A stretch of DNA of 64,000 bases from Candidatus Oxydemutator sp. (GTDB lineage: Bacteria; Pseudomonadota; Gammaproteobacteria; Poriferisulfidales; Oxydemutatoraceae), in the NCBI GenBank assembly GCA_965203445.1, contig OZ241883.1, forward strand, positions 2,193,843 through 2,257,842, given 5' to 3'. Each line of letters opens with the position of its first letter. The first letter of the stretch is position 1. The notes beneath the pieces are model-generated. The model saw only the letters and a list, made by a program, of their open reading frames with translations, had not been told where the DNA came from and searched no databases. Shown here in pieces: positions 7,066-32,865 of the stretch. The translations under genes and the position numbers were made by a program.

Positions 7066-8331
7066 ATGGAAAAACGTAACGCGCTCTACGCGCAATCGGG
7101 CGGCGTCACCGCGGTCATCAACGCCACCGCCTGCGGGCTGATAGAAACCGCGCGCCGGCGCGCCGACGCCATCGGCAACGTCTATGCCGCGCACAACGGC
7201 ATCGTAGGCGCGCTCACCGAGGATCTGATAGACACCGGCAAGCTCGACGACGCGACCGTCGCCGCGCTCAGGCACACGCCCGCAGGCGCCTTCGGCACCT
7301 GCCGCTACAAACTGAAGGACCCCGCGCGGGACGACGCCGAATACCGCAGGCTGCTCGAGGTCTTCCGCGCGCACGACGTCGGCTACTTTTTCTACAACGG
7401 CGGCGGCGACTCGCAGGACACGACGCTCAAGATAGCGCGCCTGGGACGCGACTACGGCTATCCGCTCACCTGCATCGGCATCCCGAAGACGGTGGACAAC
7501 GATCTGCCGCTGACCGACTGCTGCCCGGGTTTCGGCACCACCGCCAAATACATCGCGGTGTCGACGCGCGAGGCGGCTCTCGACGTCGCCTCGATGGCGA
7601 AGACCTCGACGCGCCTGTTCGTGCTCGAGGTGATGGGACGCCACGCCGGCTGGATCGCCGCCGCCGCCGGGCTTGCGCGCGAGCGCGCCGAAGACGCCCC
7701 GCACCTGATCCTGTTCCCGGAGATTCCGTTCGACGAGGAGCGGGTGGTGCGCGAGGCCGGACGCTGCGTCGAGGAATACGGCTACTGCGTGGTCGTCGTG
7801 TCCGAAGGCGTGCGCGACGGCGACGGGCGCTTTCTGGCCGAGGCCGACACCCGCGACGCCTTCGGCCACGTTCAGCTGGGAGGCGCCGCGCCGCGCGTCG
7901 CCACGCTGCTGACGCGAAGGCTCGGACACAAGCACCATTGGGCCGTGGCCGACTACCTGCAACGTGCGGCGCGCCACGTCGCGTCGCGCACCGACGTCGA
8001 ACAGGCCTACGCACTCGGTGCCGCCGCCGTTACGATGGCGCTCGCCGGCGAGCACGCGGTCATGGCGACGATCGTGCGCGAATCCGATTCCCCGTACCGC
8101 TGGCGCATCGGCAGCGCGCCGCTCGCGGACGTCGCCAACCGCGAGAAAAAAATGCCGCGCGACTACATCAGCGACGACGGTTTCCACGTAACCGGAAAAT
8201 GCAAAACCTATCTGCGACCGCTGATAGCAGGGGAAGAGTACCCGCCGTACCGGGACGGCCTGCCGTGCTACGCGCGCCTGCGGCACACCTTCGTTCCCAG
8301 GAGGCTGAGGTTCTGGCCCGCCCTCTCCTAG
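7066..8331 (+). CDS. pfk: 6-phosphofructokinase, about 420-aa group III type, probably pyrophosphate-dependent
   Basis: PFK-domain motifs (GGVTAVINA, NGGGDS, MGRHAGWIA). Its 421-aa length matches the PPi-PFKs of methylotrophic gammaproteobacteria. PPi versus ATP specificity is not decidable from sequence alone. Confidence 0.8.
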   Translation: MEKRNALYAQSGGVTAVINATACGLIETARRRADAIGNVYAAHNGIVGALTEDLIDTGKLDDATVAALRHTPAGAFGTCRYKLKDPARDDAEYRRLLEVFRAHDVGYFFYNGGGDSQDTTLKIARLGRDYGYPLTCIGIPKTVDNDLPLTDCCPGFGTTAKYIAVSTREAALDVASMAKTSTRLFVLEVMGRHAGWIAAAAGLARERAEDAPHLILFPEIPFDEERVVREAGRCVEEYGYCVVVVSEGVRDGDGRFLAEADTRDAFGHVQLGGAAPRVATLLTRRLGHKHHWAVADYLQRAARHVASRTDVEQAYALGAAAVTMALAGEHAVMATIVRESDSPYRWRIGSAPLADVANREKKMPRDYISDDGFHVTGKCKTYLRPLIAGEEYPPYRDGLPCYARLRHTFVPRRLRFWPALS

Positions 8332-8397
8332 GGGGAGAGGGCTACGTTGCGGGCCGGCGGACAGGTTTTCGGCCCACCCTCTCCCAAAGGGAGAGGG
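8321..8397. terminator. Two GC-rich hairpins between the convergent pfk and pal-like genes, probably a bidirectional terminator
   Basis: CCCTCTCC-taggg-GGAGAGGG at 8321-8341 overlaps the pfk TAG stop. CCCTCTCCC-aaa-GGGAGAGGG at 8377-8397 is followed by a T-containing tract. A weaker GGGCC/GGCCC inverted repeat lies between them. Confidence 0.4.
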
Positions 8398-8452
8398 GTT
8401 CAGGGTTTCATGAAAAACGACGAATCAGGGGCGCGGGCGGGATAGAGGGGTA

Positions 8453-9043
8453 TCACTGATAGACCAGCTCGGCGCGGCGGTTGCGGCTGTATGCCTCCTC
8501 GGTATGCCCTTCGACCGCCGGACGCTCCTCGCCGTAACTCAGGACCGAAAAGCGCGTCGCCTCGACGCCGTGCGCCTGCAACACGTCGCGCGCCGCCTTG
8601 GCGCGTTGTTCGCCCAGGGCCAGGTTGTAGCCGGCGCTGCCACGCTCGTCGGCGTGCCCCTCGAGGCGCAGCCCGACCTCGGGATGTTCCTTCAAAAATT
8701 CGGCGTGACGCGCCAACACCTCGCGCCCCTCGTCCTTGACCGCCGACGAGTTGTAATCGAAATAAATGACGTTGTAGCGCAGCGCGGGATCTTGCCGCGC
8801 CGCCCGCAGATACGCCTCGTTGGACGACATTTCGACCTCGTCGCCGTACAGCTGCCTGGCGGTGCTCGCCACGTCGTCGGGATAGACCTCGGTCTGCGCG
8901 CCAGCCGCAGCGTCGGCGCCGGCGTCCGGTGTCGCGGTCTGCATGTCGACGTCCCTGGTCGCGGCGCAGCCGGACAGCAACGCGCCCGACAGTACGCCCG
9001 CGGTCAATATCATGACGATACGGCGCAAAGACGATGGTTTCAT
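8453..9043 (-). CDS. OmpA-family peptidoglycan-associated lipoprotein (Pal-like)
   Basis: Signal peptide with lipobox LLSGC. C-terminal OmpA_C domain (NSSAVKDEG ... LEGHADERGS..YNLALGEQRA). Confidence 0.85.
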   Translation of the reverse strand: MKPSSLRRIVMILTAGVLSGALLSGCAATRDVDMQTATPDAGADAAAGAQTEVYPDDVASTARQLYGDEVEMSSNEAYLRAARQDPALRYNVIYFDYNSSAVKDEGREVLARHAEFLKEHPEVGLRLEGHADERGSAGYNLALGEQRAKAARDVLQAHGVEATRFSVLSYGEERPAVEGHTEEAYSRNRRAELVYQ

Positions 9044-9176
9044 ATGGAGTCGCCTCTCTTCGGGGTTATGGGCAAAAGCGGATTATAGCCTAATTGCCGT
9101 CCGAGCGCGGCAAACGGACACCGAACGGCGCTATAATGGCCGGTTGCACAATCGGATTTTCTTGCAGGAGGCGAAC

Positions 9177-9227
9177 ATGCACGACACTACCCATGACCGC
9201 GAAAACCGCGCGGAGCGTCGGCGATGA
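9177..9227 (+). CDS. 16-codon upstream ORF (MHDTTHDRENRAERRR), translationally coupled to doxX
   Basis: A perfect AGGAGG at 9166-9171 sits 5 nt before the ATG. Its TGA stop overlaps the doxX ATG as ATGA. doxX itself has no obvious SD. Confidence 0.3.
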   Translation: MHDTTHDRENRAERRR

Positions 9228-9682
9228 CGATGCAGGCGGTTCTGTGCCCGGTGCACCGCGGCCTTTCGACAATCGGCGCGTGGCTGTCGCTGCTGGGACT
9301 GCGGCTGCTGCTGGCGTGGGAGTTCTGGGAAGCCGGCGTCGCCAAACTGCAAGGCGACAACTGGTTCGCCCACGTCAGCGACGAGTTCCCGTTCCCGTTC
9401 AACGCGCTGCCGGTCGGCGTCAGCTGGTTCCTGGCGACCTGGACCGAGATACTCGGCGCCCTCGGATTGGCGCTGGGTTTCGGTACGCGCTTCTGGGCCG
9501 CGGGCCTGATCGTCCTCGACGTGGTGGCGTGGGCGAGCGTGCACGCCGACAACGGCTACAACGTCTGCGACAACGGCTACAAACTGCCGCTGATGTTCCT
9601 GATCATGCTGATACCGCTGCTGTTGAGCGGCCCCGGCAAGTTCAGCATAGACCACGTCATCAGCCGGCGTTACTGGCAATGA
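9224..9682 (+). CDS. DoxX family membrane protein
   Basis: 152 aa with three or four predicted TM helices. Typical DoxX pattern (LRLLLAWEFWEAGVAKL ... GLIVLDVV). Confidence 0.85.
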   Translation: MTMQAVLCPVHRGLSTIGAWLSLLGLRLLLAWEFWEAGVAKLQGDNWFAHVSDEFPFPFNALPVGVSWFLATWTEILGALGLALGFGTRFWAAGLIVLDVVAWASVHADNGYNVCDNGYKLPLMFLIMLIPLLLSGPGKFSIDHVISRRYWQ

Positions 9683-10527
9683 CGGCGGGCGGCACTGCCA
9701 TGGTCACGGGCGCCGGCCTCGGCCTGCGTCGCGACCTGATGGACGAGATCGAGGCCGCGTGGCCGCGCCAGATCTCGTTTATGGAAGTCGCGCCGGAGAA
9801 TTGGATCGGTGCGGGCGGCGCGCTCGGACGGCGCTTCCGGCGCTTCACCGAACGCTACCCGTTCGTCTGCCACGGCCTGTCGCTGTCCGTCGGCGGCCCG
9901 GCGCCGCTCGACCGCGAACTGCTGGCGCGTATCCGCGACTTCCTGCGCGAACACCGCATCCGCCGCTACAGCGAACATTTGAGCTACTGCGCGGACGACG
10001 CGCACCTCTACGACCTGATGCCGATTCCGTTCACCGAACAAGCCGCGCGCTACGTCGCCGCGCGCATCCGCGAGGTGCAGGACTTTCTCGGCGAGCGCAT
10101 CGCAATCGAAAACGTGTCGGCCTACGTCGCGCCGGGCCAGGAGATGGAAGAGATTGACTTCATCAACCTTGTGCTGGGCGAAGCCGACTGCGACCTGCTG
10201 CTCGACGTCAACAACGTCTACGTCAACTCGGTCAACTTCGGCTTTAACGCCGACGCCTACCTCGCGCGGCTGCCGGGCGAGCGCATCGCCTGGTGCCACG
10301 TCGCCGGGCATTACAATGAGGCGAGCGACCTGATCGTGGACACGCACGGCGCCGACGTCATCGCTCCGGTGTGGGGCTTGCTTGCAAAGGCGTATTCGCT
10401 GTTCGGCCCGCTGCCGACGCTGCTCGAACGCGATTTCAACTTCCCGCCGCTGGCCAGGCTGCTCGACGAAGTCGCGCGTATCCGCGACTTGCAGCAGCGC
10501 GATGGCGAGCGCGTCGCCGCTGCATAA
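9679..10527 (+). CDS. DUF692/UPF0276 family protein (MbnB-like multinuclear non-heme iron oxidase, MNIO)
   Basis: Hallmark DUF692 motifs in order: GLGLRxxL, YSEHLS, IENVSAY, DVNNVYVNSVN, WCHVAGH, DTHG. 282 aa. The ATG overlaps the doxX stop as ATGA. The ORF-track start at 9094 is rejected as an arginine-rich read-through frame. Confidence 0.85.
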   Translation: MTAGGTAMVTGAGLGLRRDLMDEIEAAWPRQISFMEVAPENWIGAGGALGRRFRRFTERYPFVCHGLSLSVGGPAPLDRELLARIRDFLREHRIRRYSEHLSYCADDAHLYDLMPIPFTEQAARYVAARIREVQDFLGERIAIENVSAYVAPGQEMEEIDFINLVLGEADCDLLLDVNNVYVNSVNFGFNADAYLARLPGERIAWCHVAGHYNEASDLIVDTHGADVIAPVWGLLAKAYSLFGPLPTLLERDFNFPPLARLLDEVARIRDLQQRDGERVAAA

Positions 10528-10543
10528 GCGATTCGCGCGGAAG

Positions 10544-11308
10544 ATGCCCGACGACTTTCAGGCCTTTCAGGCAATACAGCGCCAACTCGCCGCGCACCTG
10601 CGCGACCCGGCCAAGCCGCCGCCGCCCGGCACCAGGCAACGCGGCCTCGGCGTATATCGCGGCCTGTTCTTCCGGAACATCGAGAGCTTTCTGTCGAACG
10701 CCTTTCCGGTGTCGCGCAAGCTCTACGGCGCCGACGACTGGAGCGATCTGGCGCGGCTGTTTTACGCGCGCCACCGCTGCCACTCCCCGTACTTCGCCGA
10801 AATACCGCGCGAGTTCATAGCCTATCTCGAAGACGAGCACGAGGCGCGCCCGTGCGACCCGCCGTTTCTGCTCGAGCTGGCGCATTACGAATGGGTCGAA
10901 CTGGCACTCGCGCGCGCCACCGACGAGACCGACGCGGCGGCGATCAACCCCGACGGCGACCTGATGGGCGGCGTGCCGGTGCCATCGCCGCTGGCGTGGC
11001 AGCACGCCTACGAGTGGCCGGTGCACCGCATCGGCCCCGATTTCCGGCCCGAAAAGCCGGGTGCTACGCCGACCTGGCTGGTGGTGTTCCGGGATCGCAA
11101 AGACCGGGTACGCTTCCTCGAACTGAATCGCCTGAGCGCCCTGCTGCTCGAAAAAATAGCCGGGCAAAGCGGCGCCACCGGCCATGAACTCATCCGACAA
11201 GTGGCGCGCGAACTGGCAATCAAAGACGCCGAAAACGCTTTCCAAAGCGGCCGCCGGATGTTGGAAACCATGCGCGCCAAAGACATCCTGCTCGGCACGC
11301 GCCGCTGA
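10544..11308 (+). CDS. DUF2063-family partner protein of DUF692 (BufC or HvfC-like)
   Basis: N-terminal DFQAFQAIQRQLAAHLRDP is typical of DUF2063. It sits immediately downstream of DUF692 as in MNIO operons. An alternative start at 10502 would overlap DUF692 by 26 nt. Confidence 0.75.
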   Translation: MPDDFQAFQAIQRQLAAHLRDPAKPPPPGTRQRGLGVYRGLFFRNIESFLSNAFPVSRKLYGADDWSDLARLFYARHRCHSPYFAEIPREFIAYLEDEHEARPCDPPFLLELAHYEWVELALARATDETDAAAINPDGDLMGGVPVPSPLAWQHAYEWPVHRIGPDFRPEKPGATPTWLVVFRDRKDRVRFLELNRLSALLLEKIAGQSGATGHELIRQVARELAIKDAENAFQSGRRMLETMRAKDILLGTRR

Positions 11309-11354
11309 CCAAAACGGCGCGCTACCCGCCCTCCTGGTCCATCATTCCCTGCGA

Positions 11355-12515
11355 TCAGGTATTCAGCCCGACAACGGCGCTCCCCATCACGGCGACTTCG
11401 CTCATTCTGTTCCTCGCGGTCTCGCAGTATTCCTTCGAGACGTCTATGCCGAGGTAGCGGCGGTTGGTTTTTTTGGCGACCACGGTCGTGGTGCCGGCGC
11501 CGTTGAAGGGGTCGAGGATGAGGTCGCCCTGGAAACTGAACAAGCGTATCGCGCGGTCGGCGAGACCTTCAGGAAACATCGCCGGGTGGTTGTATTTTTT
11601 CATGTTGCGTTCCGGCGCGACCACCCATTTGCCGACGACCCATTTCTTGAACTCGTCGGCGGTGACGTCTATATGCTCGCGGTCGCCGGATTTTTTCAAA
11701 TCACCCTTGCAGAAGATCTCGATGAACTCCCAGGTGTATTTCAAATACGGATTGCTCGGGCTTTTCCAGCTGCCCCAGGCCGTGTATTTGCAGTTGTAGT
11801 TGTTCTTCTCCCACAGAATCTCGCCTTTCCAAATCAGCTTTTTGGCGAGGAAATAGTTGCTGATGACGTGGTGGCTCGGAATATAGTCGGAGTACAGCGG
11901 TTGGACGTTGACGATGACGCGCCCGCCGTGCTTGAGAACGCGGATGCACTGATCGAACACCGCAAAAAGTCGGTCGAAGTAACTTTGCCAGTCGCGGTCG
12001 TCCGGAGATTGTTCGTAGTCGAGGCCGAAGTTGTAGGGCGGCGACGTGAAAATCAGGTCCACGCAGTTGCCCGGCAATTTTTTCAGCACCTGCGCGCCGT
12101 CGCCGCAAATAATCCTGTTCTCGTAGCGCGCCGGCAGTGGATTGTTCTCGAGCGGGTGGTCGTTGCCCTTCGCGTAGTAGAACTTGCCGCGCCGAACTTC
12201 CTTCACGGCGCGGTTTTTGACCTTGCGCTCCTTGTTGAAACCGACGTAGTTGCGCTTGCGCCCGCGGATGCCGTAACTGCCGACTTTCTCGATTGCGGCG
12301 ACGACTTCGGCGAGCAGGCCGTTGCCGCCGGACAACTCCTCGGCCGATTGCCGCAGCCGCGCCACGTCCACTTCGCGCAGCAGGATGCGCACCGTGTTTC
12401 CGTCCGCCACCACGCGCAAATCCCGCTCGCGGAAGCGATGGTTGAAAACCTCGAGCAGCCCAATCTCTTTTTTGCTGAGAGATTGGTTCCGGCTGATTTG
12501 AATTTCCTTATACAT
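11355..12515 (-). CDS. DNA methyltransferase, beta class (N4-cytosine or N6-adenine), with an extra N-terminal domain of about 110 aa
   Basis: Motif IV SPPY (DLIFTSPPY) precedes motif I DPFNGAGTT, which gives the beta permutation. ATG at 12515 (MYKEIQ). Lower GC than the flanking core genes. Confidence 0.85.
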   Translation of the reverse strand: MYKEIQISRNQSLSKKEIGLLEVFNHRFRERDLRVVADGNTVRILLREVDVARLRQSAEELSGGNGLLAEVVAAIEKVGSYGIRGRKRNYVGFNKERKVKNRAVKEVRRGKFYYAKGNDHPLENNPLPARYENRIICGDGAQVLKKLPGNCVDLIFTSPPYNFGLDYEQSPDDRDWQSYFDRLFAVFDQCIRVLKHGGRVIVNVQPLYSDYIPSHHVISNYFLAKKLIWKGEILWEKNNYNCKYTAWGSWKSPSNPYLKYTWEFIEIFCKGDLKKSGDREHIDVTADEFKKWVVGKWVVAPERNMKKYNHPAMFPEGLADRAIRLFSFQGDLILDPFNGAGTTTVVAKKTNRRYLGIDVSKEYCETARNRMSEVAVMGSAVVGLNT

Positions 12516-12675
12516 GATGCGTGATGCGATAATCCGAGCAGGTATTCGCGGCAAGTTGTTCCATTATATCGGGATCTGGTAATCCGTATGAGTGCCATAT
12601 ATGAACTTGACAAATATGGGATTTATATAATATAATGTAGCCTTATATATCATTCTCTTATTGGGTGAAATAGCA
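12516..12675. promoter_or_regulatory. AT-rich divergent promoter region between the methyltransferase and the GHKL-ATPase operon
   Basis: About 160 bp at well under 40% GC inside a window of about 65% GC. It contains several TATAAT or TATATA -10-like elements (for example ATATAATATAATGTAG). Confidence 0.35.
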
Positions 12676-14190
12676 ATGCCGACCAGCAAAGTCAACGTCA
12701 AAAGGTTAGTCCGCGATCTTGCAGAGATGTATCATGACGATACGTTTAACGTCGTCATCATTGAACTGGTCGCCAATGCACTGGATGCCAAGGCAAGCAA
12801 AATTTCGCTCACCTGGGACGGCCAGAGACACATACTGGTTGTACAGGATGATGGCAAAGGGATGGATTCCGGGGATTTCGAGGAGTACCACGACTTCGCC
12901 GCTGAACTGAAAACTCGTGGGGATGGCATAGGATTCGCCGGTGTCGGTGCCAAGATCAGTTTCAATATTGCCAGCCGCGTAGTCACCAAAACCCGCCACA
13001 AAGGTCGCTTCAGGGCATCCGACTGGCGTTGGGATGGCCACGATCTCCATTGGAAGGATATTTCAGGCGCCGACGAGGTCCAGGTACCAGGCGGACTCAA
13101 TGCCGGCGGCACTCGCGTCGAAGTACACTTCAACCATAAGCAGGTCCCTGAAAACATCGGCGCTGATTACCTTGAAAACGTACTGAAACGCCATTACCTC
13201 CCGCTTTTTGCGAACGAGTTTGTGCGCTCGTACTCGGGCATGGGACTCTACCCGGGAGAGCCTAGGTTCCTAATCAACGGATCGCCAGTACAACGGAGCA
13301 ATCTGTCCGACGTGGCGGCATTGGACAAGCGCCATGATTTCCCCGTCAAGGTGCGCAAGAAGATAGTCGGCTGGGGCGCGATTGGCGTTTCTGAGAAAGA
13401 CTGTCCGGCAGGCCCGGACTCTTACGGGGTACTGCTCTGCACTCGCGGAAAGGTGATTATGCCGGAAATGTTCGGACTGCCTACGGGCAGACTCGGTACA
13501 AAACTGTTCGGTATCGTCGAAATCCCCGGCCTCATTACATATCTGACCACCAACAAATCCGGCTTGAAAAAAAGCGGTCGCGGATGCAATCAACTTCTGG
13601 CTCCCGTCCGCGAAGAATTGAAGAAATTTCTCGCCAAACACGGGGTCGCGGTTGCAGAACCGCAGCGCAATCCACTGTCGGCGAAACTGGAACGGGAGCT
13701 GACAAAGATCGTAAAGCAGATGCCGGAGCTGCGGGATTTCCGCGGACTGCGGCGCGAATCATCCGCCCTTCGCAAAAACGAGGACGGCGACACACCTGCC
13801 TCCCCGCAGGAACCTTCTCCCAAGATCGGCGACGACCAATCTGGCGACGGCGACGACAACGGGAGCGACAATGGACACGGGAGCGAGTCCCGCAAGGAGG
13901 ACGAGGCGGGCAAGACACGGACAAAACGCCAATCATCGCGCAGGAATCAAGGTCCTCGGGTCGCCTTTGAAAATTACCCGGACCGGAATGAAACCGCCTG
14001 GCTCAATTCCGACACCATCATCATCAACAGCGGACACCCGGCCTATTGTCGCCAAACCACACAAAGCCAGGCAAAACTAACCTACTGCATGTTCGCCATC
14101 GGCGTCGCATTAGACAAGGCCAACCTCGTTGAATCTGACAATGACACCAGCTATGTGGACCGGTTGATCACAGCCTGGGGTCAGTTGTGA
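12676..14190 (+). CDS. GHKL-superfamily (HATPase_c) ATP-binding protein with a long C-terminal extension containing an acidic S/G/D-rich low-complexity linker
   Basis: Bergerat-fold N box ELVANALDA, G1 box DDGKGM, G2 box GIGFAGVGAK. The track start at 12661 is TTG; ATG at 12676 is preferred. Confidence 0.7.
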   Translation: MPTSKVNVKRLVRDLAEMYHDDTFNVVIIELVANALDAKASKISLTWDGQRHILVVQDDGKGMDSGDFEEYHDFAAELKTRGDGIGFAGVGAKISFNIASRVVTKTRHKGRFRASDWRWDGHDLHWKDISGADEVQVPGGLNAGGTRVEVHFNHKQVPENIGADYLENVLKRHYLPLFANEFVRSYSGMGLYPGEPRFLINGSPVQRSNLSDVAALDKRHDFPVKVRKKIVGWGAIGVSEKDCPAGPDSYGVLLCTRGKVIMPEMFGLPTGRLGTKLFGIVEIPGLITYLTTNKSGLKKSGRGCNQLLAPVREELKKFLAKHGVAVAEPQRNPLSAKLERELTKIVKQMPELRDFRGLRRESSALRKNEDGDTPASPQEPSPKIGDDQSGDGDDNGSDNGHGSESRKEDEAGKTRTKRQSSRRNQGPRVAFENYPDRNETAWLNSDTIIINSGHPAYCRQTTQSQAKLTYCMFAIGVALDKANLVESDNDTSYVDRLITAWGQL

Positions 14191-14666
14191 CCGGCAGTAA
14201 AGAGCGTTGTGCCGCCGTCACTTTCAAAAAACGCGGAAGCACGTATCGGGGAACGGTGTTTCTTAGCAATCTCGCCCTGCTCCGCAACGATCCCGCTGAA
14301 ACGATGCGCGAGGTGACGACCATCTATCGAAAAGCGATGGCGGACGTGCGATGCTGGCAAAGCGACGTCAACGCATTGCGCCAATCCAGGGTACCTTTAT
14401 CTGCCCGAAAAGCCTGGGAGCTGGGAGACATTCTGCACAGATTGAAGACGGACCTCGCAAAACGCAGATGCCGCCTGGATGGCCTCTACGACCATCTGCA
14501 ACGGCACATCGGGCTCGCTCCCAGGCGCGCAAGCAGTTTCGTGACCTTTCGCAGGTACGTGAAGGATCCCGCTTCCATACCTGAAAACCTCAAATGGCAC
14601 AGCATGGAAAAGACCGCGAAATTGTCCAGCCGGGGCATTGCCGCCAATCCGTCGTCGAGGCAATAG
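14187..14666 (+). CDS. Hypothetical protein, 159 aa, second gene of the GHKL operon
   Basis: Its GTG start overlaps the upstream TGA as GTGA. It ends 2 nt before the next ATG. No recognisable motif. Confidence 0.45.
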   Translation: MTGSKERCAAVTFKKRGSTYRGTVFLSNLALLRNDPAETMREVTTIYRKAMADVRCWQSDVNALRQSRVPLSARKAWELGDILHRLKTDLAKRRCRLDGLYDHLQRHIGLAPRRASSFVTFRRYVKDPASIPENLKWHSMEKTAKLSSRGIAANPSSRQ

Positions 14667-14668
14667 CG

Positions 14669-16234
14669 ATGTCGGACGCACTGGGACTACTAATTGACAA
14701 GGTGATCCAAAAACTGGCTGACCAACCTTGGCGGCTGAGGGGCACGTCTGCATCCCGCATCAACAAAGCAATCGAAGCGCTGGCCGGCCAACGAGCCGTG
14801 TTCTCGACCATGGACATCGCCACTTATGCCGATTTGGAGCAGGTGGGCGACGCTATAAAAAACGCCGTCCACGCATATTGCGAAAATCGAATCATCGTGT
14901 GTTCCGAGCAACAAAACAACGCGGCGTCCCGCCGCCGCTATCTGGGCACCCGCGTAGTCAGGCAATGGTGGATCGGTCTGACGAAGCGATTGGTCGAATT
15001 GGGGGACGTGAATTTCCTGACAAAAAACCAACTCGCCGCCACGATGTCTCTCGCGTTCAGAGCTTCTCCGCCGTGGAACACCCCTCCCCAAAACCTGCTG
15101 AACATCGGACACCGGTGGGCCATGGTCGCCGCCGGCCACAAACCAGGCACTTTTGTATTTCCGTGGGCAATAATCCTGCGTGCCTACCCTCAGGCAAAAG
15201 GTTGGTTTCGCTTGAATTTCGCCGACGAGAAACGGCTGTTGCAATTAAGGGAATTATCCCTTGAGAGCGTGCTGGACAAAGCTCTGGAAACTTTGGACTC
15301 GCGGGAAGCCGAGGTGGTCCGCAGCCATTTCGGCATAAACACGGATCGTTCGACGTTGGATAAGATCGGCAAACAGTACGACGTCACCAGGGAACGCATC
15401 CGCCAAATTGAAAAAGAGGCCCTGGCCAAACTGCGTCACCACGTATGGCCCGGGTTTGCAGCTGATTTTGTCACATCCAAAGGATCATTATTGATTCCTT
15501 ATCCGCTATCACCGCACTATAAACTGCTTGTCCGCTGCACCGATCTGAATATCACCGATCTCCTGGAACTCAAAAAACTCTGTGTCATTGACATCGGACG
15601 TGAAACCAATTACCAAGATCTTTCTATCTTTCCCCGTGCCGATGCCGTGCGCATAAATGAAATCAGAGAACAACGTCTATACAGACTAGGCACCCGTTCA
15701 AGACCGCAAATGTTGTTCGTGGCCCTGCGCTCATTAGGCCGTGCCGCGCATTACGAAGAAATAGCGCAATGGTGCAATCAGCGATTTCCAGAGAGGCAGT
15801 GCTCTATACAAAACTGGCACGTCGCGCTTTCACGCTGCGCAAAAGACGAAACTTCCGGCATCGTATGGATAGGGGCAAAAGGGAAGTATGGCCTCAAAGA
15901 ACACGGCTACTCCCGCCCAAAAACGAGTCTGCATGACGCCGTCGCCCGGATCGTCAAGGACATCTACGCTGAGAAAAAGACCCCGGTGCCGCGTGAGACC
16001 GTGGTACGCGAACTGCGCAAGCAACGCAGAGAACTGAACCCGAACAGTGTCGGTATAGCGCTTAATCTCAACGACAGATTGGAAACCACGCCGAACGGCT
16101 ATATCCCGAAAGCGGGTATTTCCGAAGCGCCACCCGATATCCCCCGCTCCCGGCGGTACGACGTCGCCGCCGGCTTCAGGGCATTTGCCACTGCCGAGAA
16201 CGGCAACGATCAACCAACCGGAACCGAGAAATAA
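14669..16234 (+). CDS. DNA-binding protein with a sigma-70 region-4-like HTH and a C-terminal HARE-HTH-like winged helix
   Basis: The central segment LDSREAEVVRSHFGINTDRSTLDKIGKQYDVTRERIRQIEKEALAKL matches a sigma-70 region 4 fold. The C-terminal AHYEEIAQW...IVWIGAKGKYGLKEHGY resembles the HARE-HTH signature (YGLKEW). The N-terminal 230 aa are unassigned. Confidence 0.55.
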   Translation: MSDALGLLIDKVIQKLADQPWRLRGTSASRINKAIEALAGQRAVFSTMDIATYADLEQVGDAIKNAVHAYCENRIIVCSEQQNNAASRRRYLGTRVVRQWWIGLTKRLVELGDVNFLTKNQLAATMSLAFRASPPWNTPPQNLLNIGHRWAMVAAGHKPGTFVFPWAIILRAYPQAKGWFRLNFADEKRLLQLRELSLESVLDKALETLDSREAEVVRSHFGINTDRSTLDKIGKQYDVTRERIRQIEKEALAKLRHHVWPGFAADFVTSKGSLLIPYPLSPHYKLLVRCTDLNITDLLELKKLCVIDIGRETNYQDLSIFPRADAVRINEIREQRLYRLGTRSRPQMLFVALRSLGRAAHYEEIAQWCNQRFPERQCSIQNWHVALSRCAKDETSGIVWIGAKGKYGLKEHGYSRPKTSLHDAVARIVKDIYAEKKTPVPRETVVRELRKQRRELNPNSVGIALNLNDRLETTPNGYIPKAGISEAPPDIPRSRRYDVAAGFRAFATAENGNDQPTGTEK

Positions 16235-16444
16235 ATAGCAACCGTGAGCAGAAATCCGTTTTACCTCCTATCCTTTATTTCTCTCCCGAAGGAGGATGGT
16301 GTACAAGGCACTCTTCTCATAGACGGCGGTTGCCACCAGCCGCCGGTTCGGGCATAATCGCTGCCCTCTCGGGCGCCCGGGCGCGGCGCGGTTGCCGAGA
16401 TTCAGACGAACCCAACCACAGCTGAATACAGCAAGGAACCAACT

Positions 16445-17701
16445 ATGCCAGGACGCAATTTCCTATTCGTACCGGGTCCGACCAACATTCCCGTCGCGAT
16501 CCAAAACGCGATGAACATTCCGCAGGAGGACCACCGCCGACCCGATTTTCACAAACTGACCAAGCCCCTGATCACCGACGTCAACAAGGTCTTCAAGACC
16601 AGGAGCGGGCGTTCGTTTCTGTTTCCGGCGACCGGCACCGCGGGTTGGGAAGTCGCGCTCGCCAACACGATGTCGCCGGGCGACAAGGTGCTGACGTCGC
16701 GTTTCGGCCAGTTCAGCCACCTGTGGTGGGACCTGGCGGTGCGCATCGGCCTCGACGTCGAGACGATAGACGTGCCGTGGGGCGAGGGCGTGCCGGTCGA
16801 GAAGTTCCGCCGCCGCCTCGAGCGCGACAAGAAGCACGAGATCAAGGGCGTGCTGGTGTGCCACAACGAGACCGCGACCGGCGTTACCAGCGACGTCGCC
16901 GGACTGCGCAACGCGATGGACTCGGTCAAGCACCCGGCGATGCTGTTCGTGGACGGCGTAAGCTCGATTGCCAGCATTGATTTCCGAATGGACGAATGGG
17001 GCGTGGACGTCGCCGTCAGCGGCTCGCAAAAAGGCTTCATGCTGCCGGCGGGCATGGCCATCGTGTGTTTCAGCCGCCGCGCGCTGGCTGCCAGAAAACG
17101 CGCCAAATGCGCGCGCTGCTTCTTGGACATTCAGGACCATATCAACGCCAACAAGGACGGTTTCTTTCCGTACACGCCGTCCATCCCGCTGCTGCACGGG
17201 CTGAAGAAATCGCTCGAAATACTGCTCGTCGAGGAGGGCCTGGAAAACATCTTCAAACGCCACCACCGCCTGGCCGAAGGCGTGCGCCGCGCGATTGCGG
17301 CGTGGGGTTTGAGGCCGGTGGCGAAGAAGCCGGCGTGGTATTCGGACACGGTCACCGCGATCCGCGTGCCGGCGCGCTGCGACGCGCGCGACGTCATGGA
17401 CTACGCCTACCACCGCTACAACGTCTCGTTGGGCGCCGGCCTGTCGGTGCTGGCGGGCAAGGCGTTTCGCATCGGCCACCTGGGCGATCACAACGAGACC
17501 TCGGTGCTGGCGTGCCTGGCCGGAACCGAAATGGCGCTGCGCGACGCCGGGCTGCGCGTCATCCCGGGCGTCGGCGTCGGCGCCGCTCTCGAGTACTACC
17601 GCAAGACCGCGGCGCCGATGAGGGTCAAGCTGACGACCGAGAAGATGACAACCGCGAGCAAGGGCAAGGGCACCAAAAAAGGCGCCATCGTGCGGCGCTG
17701 A
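16445..17701 (+). CDS. sgaA: Serine--glyoxylate (class V) aminotransferase
   Basis: Class V aminotransferase fold (FVPGPTN ... SGSQKG PLP-lysine region). It is placed first in a serine-cycle-like cluster. Confidence 0.8.
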   Translation: MPGRNFLFVPGPTNIPVAIQNAMNIPQEDHRRPDFHKLTKPLITDVNKVFKTRSGRSFLFPATGTAGWEVALANTMSPGDKVLTSRFGQFSHLWWDLAVRIGLDVETIDVPWGEGVPVEKFRRRLERDKKHEIKGVLVCHNETATGVTSDVAGLRNAMDSVKHPAMLFVDGVSSIASIDFRMDEWGVDVAVSGSQKGFMLPAGMAIVCFSRRALAARKRAKCARCFLDIQDHINANKDGFFPYTPSIPLLHGLKKSLEILLVEEGLENIFKRHHRLAEGVRRAIAAWGLRPVAKKPAWYSDTVTAIRVPARCDARDVMDYAYHRYNVSLGAGLSVLAGKAFRIGHLGDHNETSVLACLAGTEMALRDAGLRVIPGVGVGAALEYYRKTAAPMRVKLTTEKMTTASKGKGTKKGAIVRR

Positions 17702-17709
17702 GGCGAGCG

Positions 17710-18657
17710 ATGAGCCATACACGCTTTGAGCCTGCGAAGGCGCGCCTGCAACGCAGCGAACTCGCGGTGCCGGGATCGAACCCGCGCATGATCGAAAAAG
17801 CGCTCGCGTGCGCCGCCGACTACGTGTTCCTCGATCTCGAGGACGCGGTCGCGCCCGACGACAAGGAGCAGGCGCGCAAGAACGTCATCGAGGCGCTGAA
17901 CGATCTCGACTGGAAAAACTCCGGCAAGACGGTGTCGGTGCGCATCAACGGCCTCGACACGCATTACATGTACCGCGACGTCGTCGACGTGATCGAGCAG
18001 GCCGGCCGCAATCTCGACACGATCCTGGTGCCGAAGGTCGGCGTGCCGGACGACCTCTACACCGTGGACGTCCTGGTCACGCAGATCGAGGAGGCCAAAG
18101 GCATCGAGCATCGAATCGGCCTGGAAGCGTTGATCGAGACCGCGCTCGGCATGGCCAACGTCGAGCGCATCGCGGCCGCGCGCGGCACGCGCCTCGAGGC
18201 GTTGCATTTCGGCGTCGCCGATTACGCCGCCAGCAACCGCGCGCGCACCGTCAACATCGGCGGCTTGAACCCCGACTACCCGGGCGACCAGTGGCACGCC
18301 GCGATCACGCGCATGACGGTCGCCTGCCGCGCCTTCGGCCTGCGCCCGATAGACGGGCCGTTCGGCGACTTCAACGACGCCGACGGCTACACGCTGGCGG
18401 CGAAGCGCGGCGCGGCGCTCGGCATCGAGGGCAAGTGGGCGATACACCCGTCGCAGATCGCGCTCGCAAACGACGTATTTTCGCCGCCCGCGTCCGAGGT
18501 CGAAAAAGCGCGCCGCATCCTCGAGGAACTCGCAAAAGCCGCGCGCGAAGGGCGCGGGGCGGCGTCGCTCGACGGCAGGATGATAGACGCGGCGTCGGCG
18601 CGCATGGCCGAGAACGTCGTCAACATGGCCGCGGCAATCGAGGCGAAACAAGGCTGA
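17710..18657 (+). CDS. mcl: Malyl-CoA lyase, HpcH/HpaI/CitE family
   Basis: 315 aa in the CitE-like fold (DLEDAV ... EALIETA ... GFDG-type motifs), adjacent to mtkAB. Confidence 0.8.
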   Translation: MSHTRFEPAKARLQRSELAVPGSNPRMIEKALACAADYVFLDLEDAVAPDDKEQARKNVIEALNDLDWKNSGKTVSVRINGLDTHYMYRDVVDVIEQAGRNLDTILVPKVGVPDDLYTVDVLVTQIEEAKGIEHRIGLEALIETALGMANVERIAAARGTRLEALHFGVADYAASNRARTVNIGGLNPDYPGDQWHAAITRMTVACRAFGLRPIDGPFGDFNDADGYTLAAKRGAALGIEGKWAIHPSQIALANDVFSPPASEVEKARRILEELAKAAREGRGAASLDGRMIDAASARMAENVVNMAAAIEAKQG

Positions 18658-18720
18658 TCGAAGCGCGACATTCTCATCCCAGCCCCATTCCAAAGGAAGC
18701 AGGGAGAATACGGAGGAACC

Positions 18721-19899
18721 ATGGACATCCACGAATACCAGGCGAAGGAAATCCTGCAGAAATACGGCGTCAAGACCGCCCCCGGCAAGCTCGCCTACAG
18801 CCCGGCGCAGGCGGTCACCTGCTATCGCCAGATCGGCACGCCGACCTGTGTCGTCAAGGCGCAGATCCATTCCGGCGCGCGCGGCAAGGCCGGCGGCGTC
18901 AAGCTGTGTTCGAGCGAGGACGAGGTGCAGAAAGCCACCAACCAGATGATCGGCACGCGCCTGGTGACGATCCAGACCGGGCCGCAGGGCAAGATCGTCG
19001 AGAAGGTCTATATCGAGGCCGGCACCGAGATCGGGCGCGAACTCTACCTGGCCTTCGTGCTCGACCGCGCCACCGAGCGCATCGTCGCGATCGCCTCGGG
19101 CGTCGGCGGCATCGGCATAGAGGAACTCGCCGCCGAACACCCACAGTCCATCGTGCGCATCCCGATAGACCCGGCCGTGGATCTGCGGCGTTTTCAGGCG
19201 GCCGAGATCGCGTTCGCGCTCGAGATGCCGAAGAACCTGCTGAACGCCGCGATCAATACGATCACCGGTTGCTACCGTGCGTTCGTCAAGTCGGACGCGA
19301 GCCTGGTCGAGGTCAATCCGCTGGTCATCACCAAGAACCAGGAGCAACTGATCGCGCTCGACGCCAAGATGATCGTGGACGACAACGCGCTGTTCAAGCA
19401 CCCGGAGATCTCGGAGATGCGCGACAAGTCGCAGGAGGACGCGCGCGAGACCAGGGCCTCCGACCACGACCTCAGCTACGTCGGCTTGGACGGCAACATC
19501 GGCTGTATGATCAACGGCGCCGGACTTGCGATGGCGACGATGGACATGATCAAGCACGCCGGTGGCGAACCGGCCAACTTTCTCGACATCGGCGGCGGTG
19601 CGTCGCCGGAACGGGTCACCAAGGCGTTCGAGCTGGTGCTCGAGGACAAGAACGTCAAGGCGATGCTGGTCAACATCTACGCCGGCATCAACCGCTGCGA
19701 CTGGATCGCCGAGGGCCTGATCAAGGCGGTGCGCGCGATAGACCTGAAGGTGCCGCTGGTGGTGCGCCTGTCCGGCACCAACGTCGAGGTCGGGCGCGAA
19801 ATGCTGAAGGAGAGCGGTCTGCCGATACTCTCGGCCGACACCCTGGGCGAGGCCGCGCACATGGCCGTCGAGGCCGCCGGCAAAGCCGCGTCCAAATAA
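18721..19899 (+). CDS. mtkA: Malate--CoA ligase (malate thiokinase) beta subunit
   Basis: Near-collinear with Methylobacterium MtkA (MDxHEYQAKE ... AKMxFDDNALF ... GNIGCxVNGAGLAMATMDxIKxxGGEPANFLDxGGGAS). Confidence 0.85.
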   Translation: MDIHEYQAKEILQKYGVKTAPGKLAYSPAQAVTCYRQIGTPTCVVKAQIHSGARGKAGGVKLCSSEDEVQKATNQMIGTRLVTIQTGPQGKIVEKVYIEAGTEIGRELYLAFVLDRATERIVAIASGVGGIGIEELAAEHPQSIVRIPIDPAVDLRRFQAAEIAFALEMPKNLLNAAINTITGCYRAFVKSDASLVEVNPLVITKNQEQLIALDAKMIVDDNALFKHPEISEMRDKSQEDARETRASDHDLSYVGLDGNIGCMINGAGLAMATMDMIKHAGGEPANFLDIGGGASPERVTKAFELVLEDKNVKAMLVNIYAGINRCDWIAEGLIKAVRAIDLKVPLVVRLSGTNVEVGREMLKESGLPILSADTLGEAAHMAVEAAGKAASK

Positions 19900-19921
19900 G
19901 GTCACACCGGAGAACGACATC

Positions 19922-20809: not shown

Positions 20810-20819
20810 GAACAACATC

Positions 20820-32715: not shown

Positions 32716-32791
32716 TCCCCGATAGCTCAGTTGGTAGAGCGGGTGACTGTTAATCACTAGGTCGGCGGTTCGAGCCCGTCTCGGGGAGCCA
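32716..32791 (+). tRNA. tRNA-Asn (GTT)
   Basis: 76 nt. Acceptor TCCCCGA/TCGGGGA, anticodon loop CTGTTAA, T-loop GGTTCGAGCC, terminal GCCA. Confidence 0.9.
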
Positions 32792-32865
32792 GATTGGCGA
32801 AAGCGCACGCTTTGCCCTCAGGCCGATACATCGGCACCCGTGTAAGAACACGGCGACGACAAAAA

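What the first reader, a model, noticed from the sequence alone, without database searches (positions are those of the whole stretch)
9166..11308. DoxX / DUF692 (MNIO) / DUF2063 cluster with no recognisable precursor peptide
Three genes are strung together by overlapping stop/start codons: doxX, then a DUF692 protein, then a DUF2063 protein. This gene set is the signature of MNIO-dependent RiPP clusters of the bufferin or DUF2282-metallophore type, and more broadly of MbnB-like peptide maturases. Here the order is DoxX first. No Cys-rich, signal-peptide-bearing precursor ORF can be found in the 180-bp upstream gap or downstream, where a convergent methyltransferase gene begins 46 nt later. Either the substrate is encoded elsewhere in the genome, or this MNIO pair acts on a non-canonical substrate.
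Basis: partly seen in the sequence, partly recalled or inferred. Interest (0 to 1): 0.75.

Follow-up and report, generated by a model that had tools for sequence, protein, structure and literature searches.

The report
Copper-peptide maturase operon without its precursor
These three genes are the enzyme set (hvfX-hvfB-hvfC) that normally matures a cysteine-repeat copper-binding peptide of the oxazolin type, but the peptide gene is absent here and in a whole clade of relatives, so the substrate is most likely encoded elsewhere in the genome, which is a documented and fairly ordinary situation for this family.

Summary
Window 9224-9682, 9679-10527 and 10544-11308 (+) encode a DoxX protein, an MNIO (DUF692) enzyme and a DUF2063/NGO1945_C partner. 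Each passes the curated NCBIfam cut-off for HvfX, HvfB and HvfC. It is therefore the oxazolin/captophorin (EGKCG, Lys-Cys) type, not the bufferin or methanobactin type. DoxX-first is not unusual: the reference Haemophilus operon is hvfX-hvfA-hvfB-hvfC. What is missing is hvfA.

No EGKCG-type, bufferin-type or other Cys-repeat ORF exists in any frame of the 64 kb. The same precursor-less X-B-C operon occurs in six further genomes (72-89% HvfB identity), so it is not an assembly artefact.

The genes are under purifying selection (dN/dS about 0.2-0.4). All metal-ligand residues, the catalytic-base residue and the Lys-Cys specificity residues are kept, and HvfC is not unusually diverged. In the nearest outgroups hvfA lies 1-9 kb away from hvfB; elsewhere it sits directly upstream (about 63 of 77 loci).

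Best reading: an active maturase module whose canonical precursor is unlinked (confidence about 0.55). I could not search the rest of the source genome, so this is not proven. It is a new member of a known kind, of modest interest.

The parts
9132..9137 (+). Putative -10 box (TATAAT) of the hvfX-hvfB-hvfC promoter. A second perfect TATAAT on the minus strand (9087-9082) faces the divergent ompA-like gene.
   Evidence: Read from the sequence. Invariant in the alignment with L001 and L002 and present in L008. The tool's strict two-hexamer scan did not call it because the -35 is weak. Its function is inferred.
9166..9171 (+). Shine-Dalgarno AGGAGG serving the upstream ORF.
   Evidence: Sequence. 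Conserved as AGGAGG or GGGAGGA in L001, L002 and L008.
9177..9227 (+). 16-codon upstream ORF (MHDTTHDRENRAERRR) whose TGA stop overlaps the hvfX ATG. It has no Cys and no signal peptide. It is probably a leader ORF translationally coupled to hvfX, not a precursor.
   Evidence: Counterparts are MSNTIHDRENRAERRR (L001) and MTSKTD[DY]SRTRRRS[NS]LR (L002, L008), all with the ATGA overlap. It is absent in L003, L088, L089 and L005, where the strong SD lies directly before the doxX ATG.
9224..9682 (+). hvfX: DoxX-family inner-membrane protein of the Hvf system (152 aa).
   Evidence: Pfam DoxX 4.7e-19. NCBIfam HvfX equivalog 140 bits against a cut-off of 80. dN/dS 0.20-0.23 against four relatives.
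9679..10527 (+). hvfB: multinuclear non-haem iron oxidative enzyme (MNIO/DUF692), 282 aa. Its start overlaps the hvfX stop (ATGA).
   Evidence: PF05114 6.5e-101. NCBIfam HvfB 422 bits against 360. PDB 3BWW (Histophilus somni homologue) 2.8e-74. Residues R17, R18, H65, H100, E144, D176, N178/N179, H207, H211, D221, H223, E250, D252 and F253 are conserved. dN/dS 0.19-0.27.
10544..11308 (+). hvfC: DUF2063 plus NGO1945_C partner protein (PME1 type, carrying the RiPP recognition element), 254 aa. An alternative in-frame start lies at 10502.
   Evidence: PF09836 7.8e-26 and PF22106 7.7e-27. NCBIfam HvfC 295 bits against 142. dN/dS 0.21-0.41. Divergence from canonical loci is normal for the level of HvfB divergence.

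Best explanation
Window 9177-11308 is a maturase-only hvfX-hvfB-hvfC operon of the oxazolin/captophorin system.

Inferred by homology: HvfB, an iron-dependent oxidase, works in complex with HvfC, which binds the precursor and is needed for the active mixed-valent di-iron state. Together they convert the Cys of E-G-K-C-G-type repeats in a Sec-signal-bearing peptide (HvfA) into 5-thiooxazole groups in the cytoplasm. The peptide is then exported and binds copper. HvfX is a membrane DoxX protein of still unknown role.

Shown here: in this lineage the hvfA gene is not part of the operon and is not within 9 kb upstream or 53 kb downstream. The most likely reason is that the canonical EGKCG-type precursor is encoded at an unlinked locus and is modified in trans, while the maturase operon is driven by its own sigma-70-type promoter.
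For: Identity:
- All three proteins exceed the curated NCBIfam equivalog cut-offs for HvfX, HvfB and HvfC, but not those for BufB, MbnB, ApyH or ChrH. The Pfam hits agree.

The arrangement is real and old:
- The same adk-pfk-ompA(-)/doxX-hvfB-hvfC layout without hvfA is found in L001 (89% HvfB identity), L002 and L008 (81%), L003 (73%) and L088 (72%).
- L089 (72%) has X-B-C with different upstream genes.
- These come from independent assemblies, including Mb-scale contigs, and form one clade.

The module is maintained:
- dN/dS is 0.19-0.41 at dS up to about 0.9.
- All metal-ligand motif residues and the catalytic-base Asp are invariant.

The substrate type is predicted to be canonical:
- The residues reported to specify Glu at position 1 and the Lys-Cys-Gly context are present as R17/R18 and D252/F253 in all clade members. 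In FonB these are Arg15/Arg16 and Asp249/Phe250 (bioRxiv 10.1101/2025.11.18.689057).
- HvfB is 62-70% identical to enzymes whose hvfA lies directly upstream.
- At equal HvfB identity, HvfC is as similar to canonical HvfCs (44-46%) as canonical HvfCs are to each other.

Precedent for unlinked precursors in the nearest branches:
- Thioalkalivibrio L005 has hvfA 3.6 kb upstream, behind an ECF sigma/anti-sigma pair; NCBI names it HvfA (P0173).
- L027 has it about 8.7 kb upstream, L009 about 5.9 kb upstream and L052 about 0.7 kb upstream. L018 is A-X-B-C with a second hvfA 2.6 kb further up.

Literature:
- About 4,000 MNIOs of this mega-cluster have no known precursor next to them, and precursors modified from another locus are considered (PMC12452194).
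Against: - No hvfA was actually found for this genome. Only 64 kb of a contig of about 2.38 Mb is visible.
- A protein-database search with the HvfA of another 'Ca. Porisulfidus' MAG (L065) returned 41 HvfA homologues. None lay on a contig with the length of the source contig or of the contigs of L001, L002, L008, L088 or L089. This is weak negative evidence: it depends on shared words and on short ORFs having been called as genes.
- A broader profile search saturated (7,223 hits, 120 listed) and was uninformative.
- The role of HvfX and the in-trans activity are inferred, not shown.
Confidence: 0.55

Rival explanations
1. The HvfB/HvfC pair of this clade modifies an unlinked substrate that is not an EGKCG-type HvfA. 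This would be some other Cys-containing secreted peptide or protein that current precursor profiles do not recognise.
For: - No canonical precursor lies within 64 kb here or within 8-10 kb on either side in six relatives.
- No L065-like HvfA is listed on any of the clade's Mb-scale contigs.
- The literature reports hundreds of unclassified small Cys ORFs next to MNIOs of the same mega-cluster (PMC12452194).
- FonBC tolerates some non-EGKCG motifs.
Against: - The Lys-Cys specificity residues (RR, DF) are strictly kept.
- HvfC shows no excess divergence relative to canonical systems.
- The enzymes are 62-70% identical to ones with adjacent EGKCG precursors.
- No candidate substrate is co-conserved near the operon. 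The ompA-like lipoprotein has only its lipobox Cys and is absent from L089.
Confidence: 0.2
2. The precursor has been lost from the genome. The three genes would then be an orphan module, either retained for a precursor-independent role (for example a redox or copper-related function of HvfX with HvfBC) or slowly decaying.
For: - Same absence data as above.
- Symbiont-type genomes of about 1.5-2.4 Mb often lose genes.
- The literature notes that it is unknown whether all such clusters are functional.
Against: - All three ORFs are intact in seven genomes spanning dS of about 0.9, with dN/dS of 0.19-0.41.
- Every catalytic and ligand residue is invariant.
- Translational coupling (ATGA) and the promoter -10 box are conserved.
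- No MNIO-PME1 pair is known to act without a peptide substrate.
Confidence: 0.12
3. The 16-residue upstream ORF (9177-9227) is the substrate peptide of the MNIO.
For: It has a strong Shine-Dalgarno. It occupies the position that hvfA holds in A-X-B-C operons (L018, L065). It is conserved in four genomes.
Against: - It has no Cys, no signal peptide and no similarity to HvfA.
- It is absent from L003, L088 and L089, which keep X-B-C.
- Its sequence changes substantially between subclades.
- HvfB-family chemistry is Cys oxidation.
- Its 5' codons resemble a shifted copy of the doxX 5' end (ATG CAC GAC AC against ATG ACC ACG GAC AC in L089), which suggests a displaced initiation region.
Confidence: 0.02
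4. hvfA is really adjacent but was lost through assembly collapse of its low-complexity repeats or through truncation of the locus.
For: EGKCG repeats are low-complexity sequence and could in principle mis-assemble.
Against: - hvfX and hvfB overlap by 4 nt, or are 3 nt apart, in seven independent assemblies, including chromosome-level and Mb-scale contigs.
- The window extends 9 kb upstream and 53 kb downstream of the operon.
Confidence: 0.01

Closest known systems
hvf operon of nontypeable Haemophilus influenzae (hvfX-hvfA-hvfB-hvfC; product oxazolin), PMC11252979 and bioRxiv 10.64898/2026.07.17.739211
   Same: - It has the same three accessory and enzyme families, each above the NCBIfam equivalog cut-off.
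- DoxX comes first.
- The MNIO is followed directly by its DUF2063/RRE partner.
- The essential residues are conserved: the N175/D242/H244 equivalents are N within LDVNN and D221/H223.
   Different: No hvfA lies between hvfX and hvfB, which overlap by ATGA, or anywhere in the 64 kb. A 16-codon upstream ORF precedes hvfX. The organism is an uncultured gammaproteobacterium whose closest named relative is a 'Ca. Porisulfidus' MAG, not a pathogen.
Fontiphorin (fonABC) and the 'captophorin' class of MNIO-PME1 clusters, Lys-Cys/EGKCG group (bioRxiv 10.1101/2025.11.18.689057)
   Same: It is an MNIO plus PME1 pair. The FonB Arg15/Arg16 and Asp249/Phe250 equivalents are present (R17/R18, D252/F253), which predicts 5-thiooxazole installation at E-x-K-C-G sites.
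   Different: fon is a minimal A-B-C cluster with the precursor in cis. Here the precursor is missing and a DoxX gene is present.
Thioalkalivibrio thiocyanodenitrificans hvf locus (L005, GCA_000378965.1)
   Same: It has the same HvfX subfamily (196 bits against 30-50 for most other loci) and 70% HvfB identity. hvfA is not adjacent to hvfB, which shows that precursor and maturase can be uncoupled in this branch.
   Different: hvfA is still in the neighbourhood, 3.6 kb upstream behind an ECF sigma/anti-sigma pair. doxX is separated from hvfB by a DUF1841 gene.
Bufferin clusters (bufABC(D); Buf1 = DUF2282, Buf2 = BUF_6/12Cys), PMC12452194
   Same: They belong to the same MNIO mega-cluster, use a PME1/DUF2063 partner, frequently carry DoxX, and produce a Sec-exported Cu-binding thiooxazole peptide.
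   Different: The BufB model scores below its cut-off (260 against 310). No DUF2282-like or Cys-Lys motif ORF is present. The Phe at the Asp-Phe site is typical of the Lys-Cys group, not the Buf2 group.
Methanobactin MbnABC
   Same: It uses an MNIO fold with di/tri-iron Cys oxidation and yields a copper-binding product.
   Different: MbnB scores 45 bits against a cut-off of 325. The partner is MbnC, not DUF2063. The precursor carries a leader peptide, not a Sec signal. No mbnA is present.

Membership tests
Hvf / oxazolin (captophorin, EGKCG Lys-Cys group) biosynthetic cluster | HvfB-family MNIO enzyme | tested here: met
   NCBIfam NF003818 HvfB equivalog, 421.8 bits against a cut-off of 360. 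PF05114 6.5e-101 over the full profile length.
Hvf / oxazolin (captophorin, EGKCG Lys-Cys group) biosynthetic cluster | Conserved iron-ligand motifs, catalytic-base Asp, and the Arg-Arg / Asp-Phe determinants of Lys-Cys substrate choice | tested here: met
   H65, H100, E144, D176, N178/N179, H207, H211, D221, H223, E250, D252, F253, R17 and R18 are conserved in the window and all clade members, and are invariant or nearly so in 83 sequences.
Hvf / oxazolin (captophorin, EGKCG Lys-Cys group) biosynthetic cluster | PME1-type partner (DUF2063 N-domain plus RRE-containing C-domain) encoded next to the MNIO | tested here: met
   NCBIfam HvfC equivalog 295.3 bits against 142. PF09836 and PF22106 are both above their gathering scores. 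The gene starts 16 nt after hvfB.
Hvf / oxazolin (captophorin, EGKCG Lys-Cys group) biosynthetic cluster | HvfX (DoxX) membrane protein in the operon (frequent, not universal) | tested here: met
   NCBIfam HvfX equivalog 140.4 bits against 80. Its stop overlaps the hvfB start.
Hvf / oxazolin (captophorin, EGKCG Lys-Cys group) biosynthetic cluster | Precursor HvfA (Sec signal peptide, NPF...SGY N-domain, repeated E-G-K-C-G motifs) encoded in the cluster | tested here: not met
   - No GKC[GAS] or EGxCG ORF.
- No tandem G-x-C-G or [KR]CG pair in any frame at any ORF length.
- A local HMM built from 51 HvfA N-domains finds nothing in the window, L001-L004, L008 or L088-L090.
- By contrast, about 63 of 77 assessable relatives have hvfA adjacent to hvfB.
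Hvf / oxazolin (captophorin, EGKCG Lys-Cys group) biosynthetic cluster | HvfA encoded somewhere in the same genome | not testable with these tools
   Only 64 kb of the contig of about 2.38 Mb is available.
Hvf / oxazolin (captophorin, EGKCG Lys-Cys group) biosynthetic cluster | Cys to 5-thiooxazole modification (-4 Da per Cys, absorbance about 302-305 nm) and Cu(I) binding of the product | not testable with these tools
   This is a biochemical property, known for NTHi HvfABC and FonABC.
Bufferin (Buf1/Buf2) cluster | BufB-type MNIO | tested here: not met
   NCBIfam MNIO_BufB 260.5 bits, below the cut-off of 310. The HvfB model scores higher and passes.
Bufferin (Buf1/Buf2) cluster | DUF2282 or BUF_6/12Cys precursor directly upstream of the MNIO (bufABC order) | tested here: not met
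   The gene upstream of the MNIO is doxX, with a 4-nt overlap. Motif scans for Buf1-like (CYG..G.NDC), Cys-Lys-repeat and CxxxxC patterns gave only off-frame Arg-rich noise. The signal-peptide-plus-Cys ORF screen found no candidate. These were motif scans, not the Pfam DUF2282 HMM.
Methanobactin (Mbn) cluster | MbnB-type MNIO with an MbnC partner and an MbnA leader-peptide precursor | tested here: not met
   TIGR04159 MbnB scores 45.3 bits against a cut-off of 325. The partner is DUF2063/HvfC, not MbnC.

The most novel reading that the evidence does not exclude
A clade of small-genome, apparently sponge-associated gammaproteobacteria keeps hvfX-hvfB-hvfC under purifying selection although no EGKCG-type precursor exists anywhere in their genomes. 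The MNIO-PME1 pair would then modify a different, unrecognised Cys-containing protein, or a peptide not encoded by the bacterium. That would be the first captophorin-type maturase with a non-dedicated substrate.
Probability: 0.15. Interest if true: 0.65.

Novelty: new member of a known kind. Interest (0 to 1): 0.3.

Why it matters
MNIO-PME1 ('captophorin') clusters are a very large and recently defined class of copper-binding RiPP systems. About one locus in seven to ten has no recognisable precursor next to it. This locus gives a clean, phylogenetically coherent example: seven genomes, intact enzymes under selection, and canonical specificity residues. It could be used to test whether such maturase-only operons work in trans on unlinked precursors. 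If whole-genome scans of this clade found no precursor at all, it would point to a new substrate class for these enzymes. As it stands, it mainly refines the annotation to hvfXBC of the oxazolin type, and corrects the idea that the gene order is unusual.

Tried and rejected
- **Cys-repeat precursor searches in the window.** I ran regex scans, a screen for signal peptide plus at least 2 Cys and a purpose-built HvfA N-domain HMM. All were negative.
- **Finding hvfA on the source contig through the protein database.** I matched the 'longest_contig' value (2,378,814 bp; also 476,575, 1,484,759, 1,833,960, 1,846,438 and 1,943,614 for relatives). The L065 HvfA query gave 41 hits with no matching contig. 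The four-sequence profile saturated at 7,223 hits with only 120 listed. The outcome is inconclusive.
- **Locating the source record.** The look-up of encoding contigs with the window's own HvfB found no record, so the source genome could not be walked.
- **The ompA-like lipoprotein as substrate.** Rejected. Its only Cys is in the lipobox and the gene is missing next to the operon in L089.
- **The 16-aa upstream ORF as precursor or as a remnant of hvfA.** Rejected as precursor because it has no Cys and is absent in part of the clade. The 'hvfA scar' idea could not be tested, since no outgroup shares the synteny. Its 5' end looks more like a displaced copy of the doxX initiation region.
- **Neighbouring unknown ORFs in relatives.** These were a Sel1-like 150-aa protein, 147-aa proteins downstream of hvfC in Thioalkalivibrio-type loci, and a 1,312-aa protein in L089. 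None is precursor-like; by my reading of its sequence the 1,312-aa protein resembles the purine-synthesis enzyme PurL, though it was not searched against any family library.
- **RNA elements.** An Rfam scan of 8300-12000 found no riboswitch or other RNA element.
- **Promoters and terminators.** The scan gave nothing above shuffle expectation. A hairpin at 9140-9155 is not conserved in L001.
Full report
**1. Observation**

The + strand of window 9224-11308 carries three consecutive genes.
- 9224-9682 encodes a 152-aa DoxX protein (PF07681, 4.7e-19).
- 9679-10527 encodes a 282-aa MNIO/DUF692 enzyme (PF05114, 6.5e-101, full profile length).
- 10544-11308 encodes a 254-aa protein with DUF2063 (PF09836) and NGO1945_C (PF22106) domains.

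The doxX stop and the MNIO start overlap (ATGA, 9679-9682). The MNIO and DUF2063 genes are separated by 16 nt unless the upstream in-frame ATG at 10502 is used; relatives show a short gap.

Upstream lies a divergent OmpA/Pal-like lipoprotein gene (8453-9043, minus strand). Downstream lies a convergent N6/N4 DNA methyltransferase gene (11355-12554, minus strand).

**2. Which family**

NCBIfam equivalog models place all three proteins in the Hvf system: HvfX 140 bits (cut-off 80), HvfB 422 (360) and HvfC 295 (142). The sister models fail their cut-offs: BufB 260 (310), ApyH 77 (400), MbnB 45 (325) and ChrH 34 (600). The closest solved structure is 3BWW, the Histophilus somni HvfB homologue (2.8e-74).

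The reference hvf operon of nontypeable Haemophilus influenzae is DoxX(NTHI1440)-HvfA(NTHI1441)-HvfB(NTHI1443)-HvfC(NTHI1444). HvfA is a 95-aa Sec-signal peptide with three AEGKCGEGKCG motifs (PMC11252979). The modification has since been reassigned to 5-thiooxazole. HvfC is needed for the active mixed-valent di-iron state, and the signal peptide acts as the recognition sequence (bioRxiv 10.64898/2026.07.17.739211). The wider class of MNIO-PME1 clusters has been named captophorins (bioRxiv 10.1101/2025.11.18.689057).

DoxX-first is therefore the canonical order for this family. The anomaly is the absence of hvfA.

**3. No precursor in the window**

All of the following were negative:
- No GKC[GAS] or EGxCG ORF that could be a precursor.
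- No tandem G-x-C-G or [KR]CG pairs in any frame, at any ORF length.
- No Buf1-like, Cys-Lys-repeat or CxxxxC pattern outside Arg-rich off-frame noise.
- No small ORF with a signal-peptide-like N-terminus and at least 2 Cys that resembles a precursor.

I built an HMM from the conserved N-domains of 51 HvfA sequences extracted from related loci (signal peptide, then A-x-NPF-x4-L-x-SGY). Run with all filters off and E up to 100, it found nothing in the window, L002-L004 or L008, and only one chance-level match in L001 (E = 75). A second run at E up to 10 on L088-L090 returned only chance-level matches (E above 6).

**4. Comparative genomics**

The window's HvfB is 100% identical to a database protein from a 2,378,814-bp contig. 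The closest species representative in the GTDB-based collection is a MAG labelled 'uncultured Ca. Porisulfidus sp.' (L008, 81% identity).

The same layout, adk-pfk-ompA(-)/doxX-hvfB-hvfC without hvfA, occurs in several relatives:
- L001 (89% HvfB identity)
- L002 and L008 (81%)
- L003/L004 (73%)
- L088 (72%)

L089 (72%) has doxX-hvfB-hvfC with different upstream genes. These are independent assemblies, several at Mb scale, so the 4-nt X/B overlap cannot be an assembly artefact. The seven loci form one clade in a neighbour-joining tree of HvfB.

Among the 80 species-representative relatives:
- About 63 of 77 assessable loci have an EGKCG or EGSCG hvfA adjacent to hvfB, mostly 30-100 bp upstream. 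The orders are A-B-C, A-B-C-X, A-X-B-C or X-A-B-C.
- Two (L009 and L027) have hvfA 6-9 kb away from hvfB, and one (L086) has it downstream of hvfC.
- 11 show none within the available flanks.
- Six loci that the script filed as 'elsewhere' are in fact adjacent. Their stop-to-stop HvfB frame extends upstream, as the coordinates show.

The branch sister to the window clade is enriched for uncoupled precursors:
- L018 is A-X-B-C with a second hvfA 2.6 kb further up.
- L052 has hvfA about 0.7 kb upstream.
- L009 has an hvfA-EF-hand fusion about 5.9 kb upstream.
- L010, L012, L021 and L090 show none.

The Thioalkalivibrio loci share the window's HvfX subfamily (190-200 bits against 30-50 for most other loci). 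They have hvfA 3.6 kb (L005) and about 8.7 kb (L027) upstream of hvfB; in L005 it sits behind an ECF sigma/anti-sigma pair. NCBI names the L005 protein an HvfA-family metallophore (P0173).

**5. Is the module functional, and for what substrate?**

Pairwise Nei-Gojobori estimates against L001, L002, L008 and L003 give dN/dS of 0.20-0.23 (hvfX), 0.19-0.27 (hvfB) and 0.21-0.41 (hvfC), at dS of 0.23-0.95. That is purifying selection across the whole depth of the precursor-less clade.

In an alignment of 83 HvfB sequences, all candidate metal ligands are invariant and present in every clade member. So are the residues equivalent to those shown essential in NTHi HvfB (N175, D242, H244) and the catalytic-base Asp.

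Mutagenesis of FonB implicates Arg15/Arg16 in recognising Glu at position 1, and Phe250, next to the base Asp249, in the Lys-Cys-Gly context. These correspond to R17/R18 and D252/F253 here.

At equal HvfB identity, the clade's HvfC is as similar to HvfCs of canonical loci (44.4% and 45.6% in the 60-65% and 65-70% HvfB bins) as those are to each other (44.1% and 45.4%). The substrate-recognition partner therefore shows no accelerated change. All of this predicts a canonical E-x-K-C-G substrate.

**6. Attempts to find hvfA in trans**

The source record could not be located for walking. I used the contig-length field of the protein database as a proxy.
- A search with the HvfA of L065, another MAG also labelled 'Ca. 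Porisulfidus' and carrying an A-X-B-C cluster, returned 41 homologues. None lay on contigs of 2,378,814, 476,575, 1,484,759, 1,833,960, 1,846,438 or 1,943,614 bp.
- A four-sequence profile of the nearest HvfAs saturated, with 7,223 hits and only 120 listed.

The first result is weak negative evidence, because short low-complexity ORFs are often not called as genes and the search needs shared words. The second is uninformative. Whether the genome holds an unlinked hvfA remains open.

**7. Leader region**

Two perfect TATAAT boxes lie back to back: 9132-9137 for the operon, and 9087-9082 on the minus strand for the ompA-like gene. Both are conserved in L001, L002 and L008.

The upstream ORF (MHDTTHDRENRAERRR) has a strong SD and ends in an ATGA overlap with hvfX. 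Counterparts exist in L001, L002 and L008. In L003, L088, L089 and L005 the strong SD lies directly in front of doxX. The ORF has no Cys or signal peptide, and its first codons resemble a frame-shifted copy of the doxX 5' end. I read it as a displaced initiation region that now acts as a coupled leader ORF, not as a precursor.

No Rfam element is present.

**8. Mechanism**

Shown:
- The gene identities and their arrangement.
- The absence of a cis precursor.
- Conservation of the arrangement and purifying selection.
- Retention of the catalytic and specificity residues.

Inferred from the characterised homologues:
- HvfB and HvfC form a complex.
- HvfC binds the signal-peptide/N-domain of the precursor.
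- HvfB uses O2 and a di-iron(II/III) centre to oxidise each repeat Cys by four electrons to a 5-thiooxazole.
- The product is exported by Sec and binds Cu(I).
- The role of HvfX is unknown.

Inferred for this locus: the precursor is supplied from an unlinked gene, possibly under separate (stress-responsive) control as in Thioalkalivibrio, while the maturase operon has its own sigma-70-type promoter.

**9. Comparison and novelty**

The locus is a member of the Hvf/oxazolin (captophorin, Lys-Cys) family by every enzyme-side criterion. It fails the criterion of a cis-encoded HvfA.

Precursor-less loci are already documented at scale. About 4,000 MNIOs of the mega-cluster lack a known adjacent precursor, and modification from another locus has been discussed (PMC12452194). 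More than 24,000 MNIO-PME1 loci were reported against 21,424 categorised precursors.

This is therefore a new member of a known kind. Its modest added value is that it is a coherent seven-genome clade suitable for testing trans-maturation.

**10. Verdict**

| Reading | Confidence |
|---|---|
| Observation confirmed; identity as hvfXBC | about 0.95 |
| Canonical precursor encoded elsewhere | about 0.55 |
| Unrecognised non-EGKCG substrate | about 0.2 |
| Orphan or precursor-independent module | about 0.12 |
| Upstream ORF as substrate | at most 0.02 |
| Assembly artefact | at most 0.02 |

Interest is 0.3.

Noticed in passing
window 9177-9227 (+), with SD at 9166-9171: A 16-codon upstream ORF (MHDTTHDRENRAERRR) has a strong Shine-Dalgarno, and its stop overlaps the hvfX start codon. 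It is conserved in L001, L002 and L008 but absent in L003, L088 and L089. Its 5' codons look like a shifted copy of the doxX 5' end. It may be a coupled leader ORF.
   Followed up: partly
window 9082-9087 (-) and 9132-9137 (+): Two perfect TATAAT boxes lie back to back in the 180-bp divergent intergenic region between the ompA-like gene and the hvfX operon. They are conserved in three relatives.
   Followed up: partly
window 11355-16300: A lower-GC island (0.55 against about 0.65) is inserted between hvfC and the downstream metabolic genes. It carries a type II N6/N4 DNA methyltransferase (11355-12554, minus strand), a HATPase_c_3 protein with a weak MzaB-like match (12661-14190) and a 546-aa Sigma70_r4 protein matching PADLOC MzaA at 1e-15 (14594-16234). 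L001 has the ATPase plus Sigma70_r4 pair at the same site without the methyltransferase, and L002 and L008 have nothing there. This is probably a mobile defence-like module at an insertion hot spot.
   Followed up: partly
window 16445-21800 (+): A gene set resembling the serine-cycle or glyoxylate-assimilation module: class-V aminotransferase, HpcH/HpaI (malyl-CoA-lyase-like) enzyme, an ATP-grasp_2/Ligase_CoA plus CoA_binding pair (malate-thiokinase or succinyl-CoA-ligase-like) and a 2-hydroxyacid dehydrogenase. It is syntenic in L001 and L002.
   Followed up: no
window 35215-47451 (-): A single 4,078-aa ORF with internal repeats and strongly negative GC skew (about -0.23). Its only Pfam hits are a sub-threshold Calx-beta match and a sub-threshold ACT_ACR9_C match. 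It is probably a giant surface or adhesin-type repeat protein.
   Followed up: no
window 32716-33759 (+): tRNA-Asn (32716-32791) is immediately followed by an Mrr-type restriction endonuclease gene (32794-33759), in the lowest-GC stretch of the window (0.50). This looks like a tRNA-associated island.
   Followed up: no
L070 1826-2506 and L077 8346-9026 (Methylophaga MAGs): In these two hvfB loci without an EGKCG precursor, the ORF ending about 20 bp upstream of hvfB spans about 227 aa stop-to-stop and contains a conserved 'LLCGCPITKDGHW' segment. This may be a different kind of MNIO substrate in that lineage.
   Followed up: no
L012, L021, L064: Further doxX-hvfB-hvfC operons have no hvfA within the available flanks. 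They have a gap of about 150 bp between doxX and hvfB, and by the record titles they come from lineages with other labels (a Thiotrichales MAG, an unclassified gammaproteobacterial MAG and a Methyloprofundus MAG). Maturase-only X-B-C operons therefore seem to have arisen more than once.
   Followed up: partly
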